This document shows, in pieces, positions 8,899 to 14,245 of a stretch of DNA of 64,000 nt. Both the position numbers and the translations under genes were made by a program. Numbering within the stretch: position 1 is the first letter of the stretch; every line of letters starts with the position of its first letter. The notes beneath the pieces were generated by a model, which ran no database searches, was not told the DNA's origin, and saw only the letters and a list, made by a program, of their open reading frames with translations. This stretch comes from a virus. Location: the IMG/VR virus record IMGVR_UViG_3300025949_000016; one strand, 5' to 3'.

Positions 8899-9303
8899 AT
8901 GAATAAGTGTTGTTTTTATGGATCACTTAGAAAGGCTATGTATAATTATACTAAAATAATTAATAAGCATGGAGTAAATTCAATGAAATATATAAAGACT
9001 ATAAAACTTCCTGGATTTACTTTATACGATACTAATTTAGGATACCCGACCGCTATTAGATCTTTCGGTGATAATATAATAGTAGTAGATCTATTTGAAT
9101 TAGATGATCATGCATTTGAATCCATAGAGTATATGGAAGTTAATGCAGGTTATGAAGAAGATTTTGTGAGTATTGACGACCAAACATATAGTATATTCTT
9201 ATTTAGCTCCAATCAAATAGAAGAAAACTTTAAATTAATCACAAGTGGTGATTGGATAATGTACGTTAATAAATCAATCTTTATAAAACAATTAAATAAT
9301 TAA
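8899..9303 (+). CDS. gamma-glutamylcyclotransferase (GGACT/AIG2-like)
   Basis: FYGSLRK..N, LGYP, IEYME, SGDW. Confidence 0.85.
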   Translation: MNKCCFYGSLRKAMYNYTKIINKHGVNSMKYIKTIKLPGFTLYDTNLGYPTAIRSFGDNIIVVDLFELDDHAFESIEYMEVNAGYEEDFVSIDDQTYSIFLFSSNQIEENFKLITSGDWIMYVNKSIFIKQLNN

Positions 9304-9306
9304 GAT

Positions 9307-9711
9307 ATGTTAATGCAATCTAAGAAAAAAGTTAAGAAAGTTAATTCTCAATTAAAACCTAAACCAACTCATTTTTATCTTAGAATATTTTCAAGGCATC
9401 CTAGTACAGAAAAGATTAGACATAAAATACTTGTTCCAAAAGTTAAAGCTGTTTATAGACATGGATCTACCACTGTATCTAATTTTGAATATGAAGTTAA
9501 TAGTATTGACTGTATAAAGAATAGTGCTGATAAACTATTAATGAAAAAATGCTTTGATAAAGCAGAAGTTCATCATGCTCCTTGGTTTCATATGAGTGAG
9601 ATTGAATCTAAGAAGAAAGAGTTTGAAGAATTTCTAAAAAAGATTGATTTTGAAAAAGATAAAGAGTCTTTCTTAATTATTAAGAATCGTTGGGGATCTA
9701 GAGGAGTTGGT
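9307..9711 (+). CDS. ATP-grasp ligase, exon 1 (135 codons)
   Basis: NSADKLLMK and IIKNRWGSRGVG ATP-grasp loop; ends in T at the 5' splice site. Confidence 0.85.
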
Positions 9712-9720
9712 GAAATATCT

Positions 9721-9752
9721 TTTGGTTAATTGAAAGATTTTTCGTATATTGT
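9721..9752 (+). promoter_or_regulatory. intron-internal promoter candidate for the endonuclease
   Basis: TTTG - 20 nt - TATATTGT; ATG at 9756. Confidence 0.55.
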
Positions 9753-9755
9753 TAT

Positions 9756-10358
9756 ATGGAAGAAAAAATAACAATATATGCATTGATTGATCCAATATCA
9801 CTAAAAATTAGATATATTGGTAGAACAAAATGCTCCCTTAAAAAAAGATTAAGAGAACATATAAGTAAAGCTAAAAATAATTATAACAATACTCATAAAT
9901 CAAATTGGATTAAAAGTCTTTTAAGGATTAATCTAAAACCTTTTATAAGAAAACTAACTATTATAGATGGGTGGACAGAATCTCATAAATTTGAAAGATA
10001 TTTAATTAATAAATATAAGCATAGGCTTTTGAATCACGATGATAGAGGTGAAGGTGAGATGTTTAGAGAAATTTCACTTGAGCAAAGAAAAAAAATTTCA
10101 AATACTTTAAAAGAATACTTTGAAATAAATAAAAATAATCTATCTTGGTGTAAGAAAGTATATGCATATTCTTATGATGGAGTGTTTATAAGTGAGCATC
10201 CATCAATAAGACAAGCAAGTAAGGATTTAAGAGTAAAGGAAAGAACTATAAGAAATAGTTGTTATAATAAAACAAAATATCCAAAAATTGGTCATAAACA
10301 ATTTAGCTTTATAAAAGTAGAATCAATGAAAAATTGGACAATAAAAACAGAGAGTTAA
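9756..10358 (+). CDS. GIY-YIG homing endonuclease with NUMOD1-like C-terminus
   Basis: IYAL...RYIG...RLREH...E...N; KKVYAYSYDG...SIRQAS. Confidence 0.9.
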   Translation: MEEKITIYALIDPISLKIRYIGRTKCSLKKRLREHISKAKNNYNNTHKSNWIKSLLRINLKPFIRKLTIIDGWTESHKFERYLINKYKHRLLNHDDRGEGEMFREISLEQRKKISNTLKEYFEINKNNLSWCKKVYAYSYDGVFISEHPSIRQASKDLRVKERTIRNSCYNKTKYPKIGHKQFSFIKVESMKNWTIKTES

Positions 10359-10609
10359 TTGCCGTGTTATGTGGTAACACATAATATTATTATTGAGTAA
10401 AATCGGTGAATTCTGAGAAGAAAATACCGAGCTAATTTCTGAAAATAAAGAGTCAGAAACAGTGTAACGCATAGGAACTGAAACTAGAAATAGAATATAA
10501 TGTTCCCAAGAGTGCTCGACATCCTAATGGGATGAAAATATATGCTGAGCTTACAAGAATTTGAATTGTAAGAACTAAAGGATAAAAAGCCTTTAGGATA
10601 ACAAAACTG

Positions 10610-11083
10610 AACTATTTAATAAAAACAAAAGTAGATCTTGATAAATTCATTAAAGATAAATCAAAGAGTCTTGAAAATTATATTATTGAAGAATATAAAA
10701 ACTATAGCGTAGAATATAGGTTACATGTAAGTAGAGAAGGATGTTTCTATGCTTGTAGAAAGGTTCTTAAAAAAGATACTCCTAAGGAAAATAGGTTTCA
10801 AAGACATGATGATAATTGCTCTTGGTTAGTAGAAACCAATCCAGGATTTAATAAGCCAGAAAACTGGAATGAAATAGTAGAAGACTGCAAGAAAGCAGTA
10901 GTTGCAATGGATGCTGATGTGTTAGCTTTTGATGTTAAGTGTACTTCTATTAAGGATAAGAAGGATAAAAAGTGTAGATTTATTCTTATAGAAAGTTGCA
11001 GTGCAGCATCTTTTGGAGATAAAACTGCGGAAAAATACATTCAAGAGTTACCTAAAATATTAAAATTAAAGTACGGACTATGA
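10610..11083 (+). CDS. ATP-grasp ligase, exon 2 (157 codons plus stop; absent from the ORF track)
   Basis: NYLIK...YIIEEY...EYRLHV...AFDV...ILIESCSAASFG; TGA overlaps the next ATG. Confidence 0.85.
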   Translation, partial: NYLIKTKVDLDKFIKDKSKSLENYIIEEYKNYSVEYRLHVSREGCFYACRKVLKKDTPKENRFQRHDDNCSWLVETNPGFNKPENWNEIVEDCKKAVVAMDADVLAFDVKCTSIKDKKDKKCRFILIESCSAASFGDKTAEKYIQELPKILKLKYGL

Positions 11084-11769
11084 AAATTATAGATGAAGTA
11101 AGTTCAAAATATAACCTATTTGAGATAGGACATGGGCAAAGAGAGGTTCAATTTGCATTTATAGATGGAAAAACTGGTAAAACGATAACTCCATTCTGTA
11201 GATGCAAGGATTATTTTAATGATATGTTCTTTTCAAATAAGATAGGTAAGGAACTAAGTATTTATGGATTTCATTGGAAGCCTAATCAAGACGAAGGTAT
11301 TTTAGATAGAAATACAATGACAGTGGCTGTTAGATTAAGGGATCAACATACTAAGAATATCTATGATCTTAAAGAAGAAGAGATACAATCGGTAAGAAAA
11401 TTAATGCAACAAGTTTCTAATAAAGCAGGTCTTGGTAGAATAATTGTTAGAGTATGTGAAGAAAATAAGAATATTATCGTATACTTTAATAGAAAATGGG
11501 CAGATACTCCTTATCTAAATAGTGCATTTTTCTTCTTTATTAGACTTGGATTTACGTATAAAAATGGAGAAGATATATTATCTTGGTATAATAAAGGAGA
11601 AAAATTCATATCTCCCAATGATCAATTCTATTTCAAACAAGGTTCTTCTAGAATAAAGGATATATTAGAAGGTAAACTTGACTTAAATCAGAAATATGAA
11701 ATGTATACTAATGCTAATATTCATGGAGCATCTGGGTTAATTGGTTATAAAGATTATAAGGTAGCTTAA
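11080..11769 (+). CDS. uncharacterised protein of the amidoligase cluster
   Basis: 229 aa with a CRCKDYFND motif; coupled to ATP-grasp exon 2. Confidence 0.6.
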   Translation: MKIIDEVSSKYNLFEIGHGQREVQFAFIDGKTGKTITPFCRCKDYFNDMFFSNKIGKELSIYGFHWKPNQDEGILDRNTMTVAVRLRDQHTKNIYDLKEEEIQSVRKLMQQVSNKAGLGRIIVRVCEENKNIIVYFNRKWADTPYLNSAFFFFIRLGFTYKNGEDILSWYNKGEKFISPNDQFYFKQGSSRIKDILEGKLDLNQKYEMYTNANIHGASGLIGYKDYKVA

Positions 11770-11791
11770 AAGAAATAAAAAAAATATAAAT

Positions 11792-14245
11792 ATGGAAGTA
11801 ATATATTTAAAAGTTTTACTATATGTAGTTGGATTTCATAGTTTACTCTGGTGTTATTTAAAGCGAAGGGGACATAAATTCAGTTCATTAGGATGCGGAA
11901 TAAGTGGATTTGTAGGCTCTAAGCCAGCTGATCCAAACCTTATTAGGATCATTATGATGTTTAATGAAAGTAGAGGAGAAGATGGAACTGGATGGGCAGT
12001 CAACAATATCGTAGAAAAGGATACAGAGAAAGTAACTAAGTTCATTCAATCTCATAGTCTAGATATAAGTCCAGAGGATGAAAATTTTACCATAGTCGCT
12101 CACGCTAGAAAATCAAGTTCCGGTACTAAAAATAATAAAGAATTGGTTCATCCTTTCTCTATTTATGCTGATGGAGTAGAAAAAGATAAACCAGATCTCA
12201 TATTAGCTATGAATGGAACTTTAACAAATACTCAATTAATGGCTACTACATTTGAAGTACCTTATAAAGAATTTACAAATTCTGATACTCAAATGTTAGC
12301 TAGAGCAATGGCTAAATTGGGAGAAAAAGATTATGTTAAGGCTATAGAAGGGTATGAAGGTACTGCCACTTTAGTGTTTTTTACTCCTAAACATCCTAAT
12401 ACATTACTGGTATATAGAGATCCGCAGCGGGCAATATACTATTGGCAGAAATCCGAAGATGAAATGTATATATCATCTATGGAAGAGCCTTTAGTAGCAG
12501 TTGGCGCTAATAAAAATGAAGTAATTGTATTTGAGAGTGAACATTTATATAAAATTGTTAAAGGTAAAATAAAGGAAAAAAAGAAAATAGATAGAAATCC
12601 TCTTAAGTATAAATCTTTATATCAAACTAATAAGCAGCATCGTCATGCAAGAGATGGAATGTATTATGAAAATGAGTATGGCTATAGTGATTATGAAAAT
12701 TGCCAGGTTCCTTTAATTGATATGAGGACTAGAGCAAAAAATATAAAAAGTCTTCATGCAGGAAAAGGAAATCTTGTTTATTGTTTACAAGATAAATACT
12801 ATAGAAATGGTCATTTATGTAGCGGAATGCTTAAAATAAATGATAAAGGAGAAGTAAATGAAAGGTTAGAATCTAACGAATTTAAAAAATACTTCTTTAT
12901 TAATGGTTATATGTGTAAAGATGAGCAAGCTTATGATAAATTAACGGATAAGTGCTCAGATAAAAATGGAAGGTTTGATATTAAAAAGTTTAAAAGTTTT
13001 TATCTTTCCGAACTAGTTGAGTTTTTTAAATATCCAATAACAACTATTGTAAATGAAAAAGAAAGATGGATACTTAACTCAGAGTATTCTACAAAATGCC
13101 AAACAATAGGAGATAAAATGGATATTGATATATTTTTATCACCTAATATTATTACGGTTAGATACGATGGAGAATTTACTGCCACTACTCTAAAAGATGT
13201 GGCTAATGTTGTATTAATTAAAGAAAGAGAACTTACAGTAAACCAAAGTTGTAAAAATTTAACAAATAAAACGGTTGATAAAATAAATAGTGAAGTTAAT
13301 GAAACAATACAGCACACTGAATTAGTTAGAATAATAAAAACAGATACAAGAAAAACATTTAGATCTAATTACTTCTATACTTTATATAGAATAGACATAG
13401 CCAAATGTAACCCAAGTCCTGAAGTAAAAGTTCATTTCTTTTCGATTCTATTAAAAGAATTAAGACATTTTAATGTAATAACAGAAGGGAGATATAATCA
13501 GTTACTTAATGAAGGTAGTAAAAATAAATTTGAAAGTCATGAATTAATAAAAGAGATAGATAAGTATATTGAACCTTTTTATAATAAATTAAATTATAAA
13601 AACGAAGATAAAATATCTAATATTCTATCTACAATAGATAAATTAAATTTATTAGATAATAGTGAAAGTAAAATTACAGAAGAAGATGTTATTAAAAGTA
13701 TTCGTGATAATAATGAATTATTCAACAATAATAACTTTAATAATGATTTGTTAGATTATAGTGAGGAAACTTTCAGTAAATTTACTACAAATTGGGTTCC
13801 AATTGATACTATGGATCATATGTATCCTTTTGCGGAGGCAATATGTTTATGTTTACATAAAATTGGATTTATTAATTTTAGTGAATTAGAAGACATTTTA
13901 AATAATAGTTATATAACTTTATTAAAAAGGACCGAGGCTTTATGGAATAACTGGAGAGAACAATACAAAGAGACAAGTGATAAAGTATTAAAAAATGCAA
14001 AAAAAATAATTAGTGAAGAAATTATTGAAGAAGTATTTTCATCGGAAGATCTTGAGAAAGAATGTAAAGATGAAATAAGCAATATTGTTGATTCTATAAA
14101 ATCTTATATTCAACAAGTTGAGGTTCAAGATATTGAACTAAGAACTCCTTGGATTGAAGATTCATTGAATCATATGGAATCGACAATAGGTTATATAAAG
14201 AGATATTTATTAAAGGAAGAAAAACAAGAAAATGAAAAAGAATAA
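11792..14245 (+). CDS. class II (Ntn) glutamine amidotransferase with N-terminal hydrophobic leader and long C-terminal extension
   Basis: CGISG at residue 35, SRGEDGTG, HARKSS, HPF, MNGTL, SDTQ. Confidence 0.85.
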   Translation: MEVIYLKVLLYVVGFHSLLWCYLKRRGHKFSSLGCGISGFVGSKPADPNLIRIIMMFNESRGEDGTGWAVNNIVEKDTEKVTKFIQSHSLDISPEDENFTIVAHARKSSSGTKNNKELVHPFSIYADGVEKDKPDLILAMNGTLTNTQLMATTFEVPYKEFTNSDTQMLARAMAKLGEKDYVKAIEGYEGTATLVFFTPKHPNTLLVYRDPQRAIYYWQKSEDEMYISSMEEPLVAVGANKNEVIVFESEHLYKIVKGKIKEKKKIDRNPLKYKSLYQTNKQHRHARDGMYYENEYGYSDYENCQVPLIDMRTRAKNIKSLHAGKGNLVYCLQDKYYRNGHLCSGMLKINDKGEVNERLESNEFKKYFFINGYMCKDEQAYDKLTDKCSDKNGRFDIKKFKSFYLSELVEFFKYPITTIVNEKERWILNSEYSTKCQTIGDKMDIDIFLSPNIITVRYDGEFTATTLKDVANVVLIKERELTVNQSCKNLTNKTVDKINSEVNETIQHTELVRIIKTDTRKTFRSNYFYTLYRIDIAKCNPSPEVKVHFFSILLKELRHFNVITEGRYNQLLNEGSKNKFESHELIKEIDKYIEPFYNKLNYKNEDKISNILSTIDKLNLLDNSESKITEEDVIKSIRDNNELFNNNNFNNDLLDYSEETFSKFTTNWVPIDTMDHMYPFAEAICLCLHKIGFINFSELEDILNNSYITLLKRTEALWNNWREQYKETSDKVLKNAKKIISEEIIEEVFSSEDLEKECKDEISNIVDSIKSYIQQVEVQDIELRTPWIEDSLNHMESTIGYIKRYLLKEEKQENEKE

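What the first reader, a model, noticed from the sequence alone, without database searches (positions are those of the whole stretch)
9307..11083. Group I intron splits the ATP-grasp ligase; hidden exon 2 restores a 292-aa enzyme
Seen: joining T9711 to A10610 gives ...KNRWGSRGVG|NYLIK..., an intact ATP-grasp loop, and opens a 157-codon exon missed by the ORF track. The intervening DNA has group I pairings P2-P9, a terminal G and a plausible guide (AGTTAATTGCC, 10353-10363) able to pair with both exons. Known: phage group I introns mostly target conserved genes such as td, nrd, polymerase and terminase. Inference: an ATP-grasp host gene is unusual and implies this gene is conserved and widespread enough to sustain homing.
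Basis: partly seen in the sequence, partly recalled or inferred. Interest (0 to 1): 0.75.

Follow-up and report, generated by a model that had tools for sequence, protein, structure and literature searches.

The report
Group I intron in phage ATP-grasp gene
An 898-base self-splicing (group I) intron carrying its own homing-endonuclease gene interrupts a RimK-like ATP-grasp ligase gene of an uncultured crAss-like phage. It is a sound annotation fix and a new host gene for a known kind of mobile element, not a new mechanism.

Summary
Joining T9711 to A10610 gives a 292-aa protein. It aligns in one unbroken match across the junction with every one of about 45 uninterrupted homologues that reach it (best 66% identity, E 6e-135). 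The junction falls in the invariant Gly-rich loop, GSRGxG|N.

The intervening 898 nt (9712-10609) has three parts:
- a 44-nt leader;
- an intact GIY-YIG + NUMOD1 endonuclease gene (9756-10358);
- a 251-nt ribozyme core (10359-10609).

The core belongs to a large family found in phage, viral-contig and bacterial sequences. On 33 members, covariation supports P2-P9.1 with the group I P3/P7 pseudoknot: 89.6% of cells paired against 64% when shuffled, and 54 of 65 pairs carry compensatory changes. The guide sequence covaries with the last exon bases across the family, always with U·G at the splice site. In the window it is UUGCCG (10359-10364), which pairs with UGGU|GA, so the endonuclease gene sits in the P1 loop.

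Rfam RF00028 misses the whole family but finds the Twort introns.

Three divergent exon-1-like proteins stop just after GSRGxG, which suggests the same insertion site in other alleles.

Verdict: a real group I intron and a new member of a known kind. Splicing itself is untested.

The parts
9307..9711 (+). Exon 1 of the ATP-grasp ligase gene (135 codons, ends GSRGVG; last base U9711)
   Evidence: ORF list. Alignments to intact homologues.
9712..10609 (+). Group I intron, 898 nt, from G9712 to the terminal G10609
   Evidence: The boundaries are fixed by protein collinearity together with the U|...G| rule. The alternative in-frame junction GG|...U|G would break both group I rules.
9708..9713 (+). 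5' strand of P1 (UGGU|GA), with the U9711.G10361 wobble at the splice site
   Evidence: Pairing. Family-wide covariation between exon end and guide: GGU-GCC, GCU-GGC, GAU-GUC.
9756..10358 (+). Homing-endonuclease gene (200 aa, GIY-YIG + NUMOD1) lying in the P1 loop. Its stop codon TAA (10356-10358) overlaps the guide sequence.
   Evidence: Pfam GIY-YIG 28.0 bits (cut-off 22.6) and NUMOD1 28.5 bits (cut-off 22.8). Its frame differs from that of exon 1.
10353..10364 (+). Internal guide sequence AGUUAAUUGCCG. Positions 10359-10364 form P1 with the 5' exon; positions 10353-10360 form P10 with exon 2.
   Evidence: ORF-less relatives carry the same element just upstream of P2, with a tiny P1 loop.
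10359..10609 (+). Ribozyme core. Helices:
- P2 10365-69/10375-79
- P3 10393-98/10514-19
- P4 10403-08/10425-30
- P5 10411-14/10419-22
- P6 10431-33/10461-63
- P6a 10436-42/10453-59
- P7 10467 and 10469-73/10541-46 (C10468 bulged)
- P7.1 10474-78/10502-06
- P7.1a 10484-86/10491-93
- P8 10520-24/10530-34
- P9 10550-56/10566-72
- P9.1 10575-81/10590-96
   Evidence: Helices mapped. Covariation counts on 33 homologues. RNAalifold finds the same helices on its own. The window has the consensus base at 78 of 78 columns that are at least 90% conserved.
10610..11083 (+). Exon 2 (157 codons plus stop, begins NYLIKT). There is no start codon before 10907.
   Evidence: PHROG 2599 'ribosomal protein S6 glutaminyl transferase', E 9e-10.

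Best explanation
Positions 9712-10609 are a mobile group I intron inside a RimK-like ATP-grasp ligase gene of a crAss-like phage.

Proposed mechanism. The gene is transcribed through the intron. The guide UUGCCG (10359-10364) pairs across about 640 nt with UGGU|GA (9708-9713) to form P1, with a U.G wobble at the splice site. The 251-nt core (P3-P9.1, with the P3/P7 pseudoknot) binds guanosine at the G-C pair next to the bulged C10468 in P7 and cuts after U9711. The terminal G10609 then takes the guanosine site, P10 aligns exon 2, and the exons are joined as ...GGU|AAC.... The product is a 292-aa enzyme with an intact GSRGVGN nucleotide-binding loop.

The GIY-YIG/NUMOD1 protein, encoded in the P1 loop and translated on its own, would cut intronless alleles near the GSRGxG|N codons and drive homing.

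Shown here: exon collinearity, the fold and its covariation, the guide-exon pairing, the endonuclease domains, and the ATP-grasp fold of a 66%-identical homologue.

Inferred: splicing itself, the guanosine site, endonuclease activity and homing.
For: 1. Collinearity. The spliced product aligns in a single HSP across the junction with 15 homologues, plus the roughly 30 further metagenome homologues that reach it. The best is L017: 66% identity, E 6e-135. The junction sits in the most conserved motif.
2. No independent start. Exon 2 has no start codon for 99 codons.
3. Family homology. The 251 nt from the endonuclease stop codon to G10609 match 90 phage records, lying inside terminase, capsid, tape-measure, helicase and other genes. 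They also match more than 110 viral contigs.
4. Covariation on 33 members. 89.6% of cells are paired against 64.4% when shuffled, and 35-43% when the partner is slid. 54 of 65 pairs carry a compensatory change. P3, P7, P7.1, P8, P9 and P9.1 are 93-100% paired. RNAalifold recovers every non-pseudoknotted helix, with 51 of 56 pairs compensatory.
5. Canonical P7. P7 has the N-[bulge]-G-C arrangement, and its closing pair covaries A-U/G-C. Junction sequences resemble the RF00028 consensus: AAU-CCGxA-GCx-AA and UGAAxAUAUA.
6. Guide-exon covariation. The guide and the last three exon bases covary in 19 ORF-less members, always ending in U. Removing 254-319 nt restores long reading frames, for example 191/981 and 252/246 codons.
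7. Intact ribozyme. The window carries the family consensus base at 78 of 78 highly conserved columns.
8. Endonuclease domains score above the Pfam cut-offs.
9. Host protein fold. The AlphaFold model of L017 (pLDDT 89) best matches RimK, LysX/ArgX and Ddl. A family profile hits PurK, PurD, Ddl and cyanophycin synthetase, and the loop aligns to their Gly-rich loop.
10. Recurrent insertion site. Truncated exon-1-like proteins P0003, P0004 and P0005 (59, 55 and 43% identity) stop 2-4 codons after GSRGxG|E.
Against: - Rfam RF00028 gives no hit for the window, even at E <= 10 in a 1.3-kb search. It also gives none for 22 other family members.
- There are no RNA data and no splicing assay.
- P1 must form across about 640 nt, and three of its six pairs are wobbles.
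- The subgroup was not assigned with subtype models.
- The Pfam ATP-grasp hits on the homologues are at or below the curated cut-off.
Confidence: 0.92

Rival explanations
1. Dead insertion. A mobile intron/endonuclease cassette landed in the gene but no longer splices, so the ATP-grasp gene is a pseudogene in this phage.
For: No experimental evidence of splicing. RF00028 is negative. P1 needs a long-range pairing that includes wobbles.
Against: - Both exons are still open and keep the family's invariant residues.
- The ribozyme matches the consensus at 78 of 78 conserved columns, and all helices pair.
- The endonuclease gene is intact.
- 14 of 33 family members share the ORF-in-P1-loop layout, so it is a viable arrangement.
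Confidence: 0.04
2. Split gene. A free-standing endonuclease gene divides the ligase into two polypeptides that assemble after translation.
For: Exon 1 ends in a normal stop 6 codons past the junction. From memory, phage genes split by free-standing endonucleases are known in T-even phages.
Against: - Exon 2 has no ATG, GTG or TTG for 99 codons, and an in-frame stop lies 8 codons upstream.
- 251 nt of conserved, covarying RNA structure lie exactly between the endonuclease stop codon and exon 2.
- The break is in the middle of the Gly-rich loop, not at a domain boundary.
Confidence: 0.02
3. The RNA is a different self-splicing or structured element that only resembles group I, given that RF00028 fails on the whole family.
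For: RF00028 is negative for 23 of 23 family members tested, while the Twort introns score 64-101 bits. The P7 sequence (GCAUA/UAUGC) differs from the usual GACUA/UAGUC.
Against: - Helix order, the P3/P7 pseudoknot, stacked P4-P6, A-rich J3/4 and J8/7, the bulged P7, the U.G splice site with a guide sequence and the terminal G are all the defining group I features.
- No other Rfam family matches.
Confidence: 0.02

Closest known systems
Same ribozyme family in other phages: Clostridium phage phiCD211 tape-measure gene (L006:1499-1784), Bacillus phage PJN02 RecD-like helicase (L005), crAss-like cr6_1 ATPase and cr131_1/cr7_1 terminase, bajarodcaudo virus 1 capsid gene
   Same: Homologous 240-290-nt core with the same helices, the guide directly before P2 and a terminal G. 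Many members carry an endonuclease ORF in the P1 loop.
   Different: The host gene here is an ATP-grasp ligase. The relatives' P1-loop ORFs that were checked are LAGLIDADG enzymes, whereas this one is GIY-YIG + NUMOD1. The endonuclease was therefore acquired separately.
Group I introns of crAss-like phages (Yutin et al. 2021, PMC7886860)
   Same: [quoted passage not shown] That study also recognised them through their endonuclease domains.
   Different: That paper names MCP, PolB, primase, ATP_43b and TerL as hosts in gut Delta and Zeta groups; ATP-grasp does not occur in its text. The present phage is syntenic with Cellulophaga phage phi14:2 (Steigviridae) and with 148-kb environmental contigs.
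Phage T4 td intron with I-TevI (from memory)
   Same: A group I intron carrying a GIY-YIG endonuclease, inserted at a conserved active-site motif of an enzyme gene.
   Different: From memory, the I-TevI ORF sits in a peripheral loop of the P6 region, not in P1. The host gene and the ribozyme subfamily also differ.
Staphylococcus phage Twort orf142 introns (crystallised phage group I ribozyme; subgroup IA2 from memory)
   Same: A small phage group I core with extra helices between P7 and P3'. The junction sequences are similar.
   Different: The Twort introns score 64-101 bits on RF00028, and this family scores nothing. There is no BLAST similarity to the window core. The P7 sequence differs.
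RimK / LysX / ArgX ATP-grasp peptide ligases
   Same: The fold of the 66%-identical homologue matches RimK 7qys and 5zct and ArgX 3vpc with Foldseek probability 1.0. The size is similar (about 290 aa), and there is a Gly-rich loop.
   Different: Only 14-19% identity. The substrate is unknown. The gene sits in a phage cluster with a gamma-glutamyl cyclotransferase and an Ntn amidotransferase.

Membership tests
Group I intron | Conserved core helices P3-P9 in the canonical order, with the P3/P7 pseudoknot and adjacent P4-P6 | tested here: met
   65 pairs tested on 33 homologues: 89.6% paired, 54 pairs with compensatory change, 0 of 500 shuffles as good. RNAalifold recovers P2-P6a, P7.1, P8, P9 and P9.1 on its own.
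Group I intron | P1 formed by an internal guide sequence and the 5' exon, with U.G at the splice site | tested here: met
   Window: UGGU|GA pairs with UUGCCG. Across the family the guide and exon end covary (GGU-GCC, GCU-GGC, GAU-GUC), always ending in U.
Group I intron | Terminal G at the 3' end and P10 pairing with the 3' exon | tested here: met
   G10609 is the last intron base. 6 of 8 P10 positions pair. Most family members end in G in the last alignment columns.
Group I intron | Guanosine-binding P7 (a G-C pair next to a bulged nucleotide) | tested here: met
   The arrangement is A10467-[C10468 bulge]-G10469...C10545-U10546. The closing pair covaries A-U 24 / G-C 9, and the G-C pair is invariant in 33 of 33. 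Binding itself was not tested.
Group I intron | Score above the gathering threshold of Rfam RF00028 | tested here: not met
   No hit for the window at the gathering threshold or at E <= 10. No hit for 22 other family members. Positive control: Twort introns at 100.9, 97.4 and 63.6 bits. I read this as a gap in the model, not as exclusion.
Group I intron | Self-splicing started by exogenous guanosine | not testable with these tools
   Needs in vitro transcription with GTP, or RNA-seq.
Group I subgroup IA | Extra helices (P7.1/P7.2) between P7 and the 3' strand of P3 | tested here: inconclusive
   P7.1 (100% paired, 4 of 5 pairs compensatory) with a nested P7.1a lies there. The subtype covariance models (Selles Vidal 2025, PMC11835236) are not available here.
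GIY-YIG homing endonuclease (I-TevI-like) | N-terminal GIY-YIG catalytic domain plus a NUMOD-type DNA-binding module | tested here: met
   GIY-YIG at residues 6-89, 28.0 bits (cut-off 22.6). NUMOD1 at residues 133-167, 28.5 bits (cut-off 22.8). Cleavage was not tested.
ATP-grasp superfamily (RimK-like) | ATP-grasp fold with a Gly-rich loop, full length once spliced | tested here: met
   Collinear with intact homologues. Model of L017 with pLDDT 89; top Foldseek hits are RimK, ArgX and Ddl. Profile hits to PurK, PurD and Ddl. Pfam hits are borderline, 18-27 bits against a cut-off of 27.

The most novel reading that the evidence does not exclude
The ribozyme may represent a large, coherent subclass of group I introns that the Rfam model does not capture and that may not fit the existing subtypes. 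Its marks are P7 = GCAUA/UAUGC, an invariant L9.1 loop AUAAAAAG, an invariant 3' tail GAUAACA, and endonuclease genes habitually placed in the P1 loop. It occurs in phages of Bacillota, crAss-like phages, cyanophages and many bacterial genomes. The ATP-grasp insertion recurs at the same codon in alleles down to 43% identity, which would make it a natural system for studying homing into an auxiliary metabolic gene.
Probability: 0.2. Interest if true: 0.5.

Novelty: new member of a known kind. Interest (0 to 1): 0.35.

Why it matters
- Annotation. It repairs the annotation: one 292-aa ligase replaces a 140-aa fragment, an orphan 58-aa ORF and a 'non-coding' gap. The ligase sits in a phage amide-bond gene cluster whose chemistry is unknown.
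- Host range of the element. It adds an auxiliary metabolic gene to the genes that phage group I introns are known to invade.
- Detection. A very widespread intron family is invisible to the standard Rfam model. Intron surveys that rely on RF00028 will undercount introns, and gene callers will keep splitting their host genes.

Tried and rejected
- Rfam on the window at the gathering threshold and at E <= 10: only chance-level snoRNA and miRNA hits.
- Rfam on six phage loci and sixteen bacterial loci that hold family members: no group I hit.
- The genome search 'own': no genome is held for this window.
- BLAST of the core against phage Twort: only chance-level 14-21-nt matches.
- Endonuclease relatives: tblastn in phages finds four distant hits of 34% identity or less. 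The viral contigs pattern scan finds none.
The DNA of the other interrupted alleles could not be read, so whether they hold the same intron is not shown.
- A first script that picked splice sites by the longest open frame was misled by endonuclease ORFs and was discarded. The version restricted to a local P1 is the one used.
- A pairing between the conserved AUUAUA (J2/3) and AAUAUAAU was considered, then dropped because it is not kept across members (inspection).
- An alternative P1 using a nearby guide in 9722-9745 was rejected: it pairs at most 2 exon bases.
- The 8-nt repeat GTTAATTG (9724-9731 and 10354-10361) is treated as probable chance in AT-rich DNA.
- The genome contigs pattern hits are partly chance: only 44 of 120 hold a real core.

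Full report
**What is in the sequence**

The window is a crAss-like phage. The gene order primase, gamma-glutamyl cyclotransferase, ATP-grasp, hypothetical, Ntn amidotransferase matches Cellulophaga phage phi14:2 gp047-051. It also matches two roughly 148-kb viral contigs.

The ORF starting at 9307 encodes 135 residues ending GSRGVG, then runs 6 more codons to a stop. A 200-aa ORF follows at 9756-10358. It scores above the Pfam cut-offs for GIY-YIG (28.0 bits against 22.6) and NUMOD1 (28.5 against 22.8).

From A10610 a frame is open for 157 codons. It has no ATG, GTG or TTG before 10907, and an in-frame stop lies 8 codons upstream.

**Collinearity**

Exon 1 and exon 2 each hit the same ATP-grasp genes of phi14:2, crAss-like phage cr108_1 and Leptolyngbya phage Lbo-JY46. 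They align end to end with them: GSRGVG|NYLIKT against GSRGRGNTKINT.

The conceptually joined 292-aa product gives a single tblastn HSP across the junction with 15 homologues. The best is L017, at 66% identity and E 6e-135. All of these are uninterrupted.

The junction lies in the most conserved motif of the family, GSRGxG|N. Because the flanking bases differ, the in-frame junction that also obeys the group I rules (exon ends in U, intron ends in G) is unique: U9711 | ... G10609 |.

**The host protein**

Pfam hits on the intact homologues are at or below threshold (ATP-grasp 18-27 bits, RimK 17-19 bits). Exon 2 matches PHROG 2599, 'ribosomal protein S6 glutaminyl transferase', at E 9e-10.

A profile of 11 homologues finds PurK, PurD, Ddl, cyanophycin synthetase and biotin carboxylase in the PDB. 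The GSRGxGN stretch aligns to their Gly-rich loop.

An AlphaFold model of L017 (25-sequence alignment, pLDDT 89.2, pTM 0.85) best matches RimK (7qys, 5zct), then ArgX/LysX and Ddl. The junction falls in the loop between strands 122-127 and 136-139 of that model.

**The RNA**

Rfam finds nothing in the window, either at the gathering threshold or at E <= 10 on 9500-10800. BLAST tells a different story. The 251 nt from the endonuclease stop codon to G10609 match 90 phage records. The matches lie inside or between fragments of terminase, capsid, tape-measure, helicase and ATPase genes, in phages of Clostridioides, Bacillus, Staphylococcus, Clostridium, Enterocloster, Oenococcus and Leptolyngbya, and in several crAss-like phages. 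Some lie next to genes annotated as 'intron-encoded endonuclease' or 'mobile intron protein'.

A short invariant motif (GATAAAAAGC N4-8 GATAACA) retrieved more than 110 viral contigs, and nhmmer confirmed a real core in nearly all of these loci. The same motif retrieved 120 bacterial genome stretches. Of these, 44 hold a real core, in Nostoc, Dolichospermum, Bacillaceae, Clostridia, Veillonellaceae and others.

**Structure**

I derived the helices by eye from a 7-sequence alignment. I then mapped them onto a 33-sequence alignment of full-length members. Results on the 65 proposed pairs:
- 89.6% of cells are standard pairs, against 64.4% in shuffles and 35-43% when the partner is slid by 1-3 columns.
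- 54 pairs have compensatory double changes.
- The covariation score is 0.668 against 0.195, and 0 of 500 shuffles reach it.
- P3 (long range, 10393-98 with 10514-19) is 92.9% paired, with all 6 pairs compensatory.
- P7, P7.1 and P9.1 are 100% paired; P8 is 95% and P9 is 98%.
- P2 and P5 look weak only because MAFFT misaligns these variable hairpins.

RNAalifold, which knew nothing of my model, recovers P2, P3, P4, P5, P6/P6a, P7.1, P8, P9 and P9.1, with 51 of 56 pairs compensatory.

P7 crosses P3, giving the group I pseudoknot. P7 also has the canonical form: a closing pair (A-U in 24 members, G-C in 9, covarying), one bulged base, then an invariant G-C pair.

The junction sequences resemble the RF00028 consensus shown against a Twort intron: AAU-CCGCA-GCC-AA against AAU-ACCGA-GCU-AA, and UGAAGAUAUAGUC against UGAAAAUAUAUGC. 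The extra P7.1/P7.1a between P7 and P3' is the IA-type decoration.

The window carries the consensus base at all 78 columns that are at least 90% conserved in the other 32 members. Its single-sequence fold has z = -4.64.

**P1, the guide and the endonuclease position**

In the two relatives read directly (phiCD211, pCD1602_4), the four bases just before P2 pair with the last bases of the upstream exon across a 4-8-nt loop; a third locus, cr131_1, could not be resolved. Across 19 ORF-less members the guide and the exon end covary (GGU with GCC, GCU with GGC, GAU with GUC). The exon always ends in U opposite G. Removing the 254-319 nt restores long open frames, for example 101/500, 191/981, 185/245 and 252/246 codons.

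The other 14 members, including the window, have no local partner for the guide. Instead, the upstream sequence is the 3' end of an ORF that runs up to or into the guide in all 13 relatives. A simple stop-to-stop scan gave clean ORF calls for only some of them, and the ORFs checked are LAGLIDADG enzymes. So the endonuclease gene lies in the P1 loop.

In the window the guide UUGCCG (10359-10364) pairs with UGGU|GA (9708-9713), and 10353-10360 can pair with the start of exon 2. The relatives' P1-loop ORFs that I checked are LAGLIDADG enzymes, whereas the window's is GIY-YIG/NUMOD1. The endonuclease was therefore acquired separately.

**Why Rfam fails**

RF00028 is present and working. It scores the three Twort orf142 introns at 100.9, 97.4 and 63.6 bits. 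It also finds other introns in the same phage records that hold members of this family. It never hits this family: 23 of 23 members tested are negative. I take this as a sensitivity gap. Subtype-specific models exist (PMC11835236, used in PMC12880540) but could not be run here.

**Distribution of the interrupted allele**

A length-restricted protein search with the 140-aa exon 1 ORF found one near-identical copy and three divergent proteins: P0003 (59% identity), P0004 (55%) and P0005 (43%). All three stop 2-4 codons after GSRGxG|E. That is what an intron beginning GA... at the same site would give. So the same insertion site is likely, but the same intron is not shown.

**What is known**

Group I introns with endonuclease genes are already reported in crAss-like phages, in MCP, PolB, primase, ATP_43b and TerL (Yutin 2021, PMC7886860). 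ATP-grasp does not occur in that text. More than half of viral group I introns are reported as subtype IA2 (PMC11835236).

**Verdict**

The finding is correct in both observation and interpretation. It is a new member of a known kind: a new host gene, and a different endonuclease class in a layout the family already uses. Splicing, endonuclease activity and homing remain inferred.

Noticed in passing
L006:1499-2071 (Clostridium phage phiCD211, tape-measure gene): Two different introns sit 20 nt apart. A member of this family lies at 1499-1784. At 1806-2071 is a canonical group I element that the record annotates as Intron_gpI and that shows ACGACUA and UAUAGUC motifs. This Rfam copy did not report either one at E <= 0.1.
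   Followed up: partly
L189-L308 (genome contigs pattern hits): 44 of 120 bacterial genome stretches with the motif GATAAAAAGC N4-8 GATAACA hold a real family core. Hosts include Nostoc, Dolichospermum, Microcoleus, Bacillaceae, Paenibacillus, Clostridia, Megasphaera, Veillonella and Gemella. 16 were tested with Rfam and none was called group I.
   Followed up: partly
window 9740-9761: The endonuclease start codon (AUG 9756-9758) lies in the 3' arm of a 9-bp hairpin (UUUCGUAUA / UAUAUGGAA). A second hairpin at 9717-9738 follows the 5' splice site. Together they score only z = -1.88. This could be translational control of the endonuclease, as described for T4 intron endonucleases (from memory).
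   Followed up: partly
window 9724-9731 and 10354-10361: An 8-nt direct repeat, GTTAATTG, lies near both ends of the P1-loop insert. Each copy spans a TAA stop codon: that of the exon 1 read-through and that of the endonuclease. It could be chance in AT-rich DNA or a footprint of the ORF insertion.
   Followed up: no
L024:4512-4798 and L020:423-711: Two viral contigs that carry intronless ATP-grasp homologues hold a member of the same ribozyme family in another gene 1-2 kb away. For L024, removing 282 nt joins open frames of 160 and 140 codons. The host genes were not identified.
   Followed up: partly
window 10582-10589 and 10598-10604: The P9.1 loop AUAAAAAG and the 3' tail GAUAACA are almost invariant in all 33 members, yet they are unpaired in the model. 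They are probably tertiary contacts or part of the 3' splice-site docking. No partner was found.
   Followed up: no
window 8899-14245: The interrupted ligase sits in a conserved cluster: gamma-glutamyl cyclotransferase (Pfam GGACT, E 2e-11), ATP-grasp, a 229-aa protein with no family hit, and an 817-aa Ntn-type amidotransferase. The cluster is syntenic with phi14:2 gp048-051, L017 and L019. The exon 2 stop overlaps the next gene's start (ATGA at 11080-11083).
   Followed up: partly
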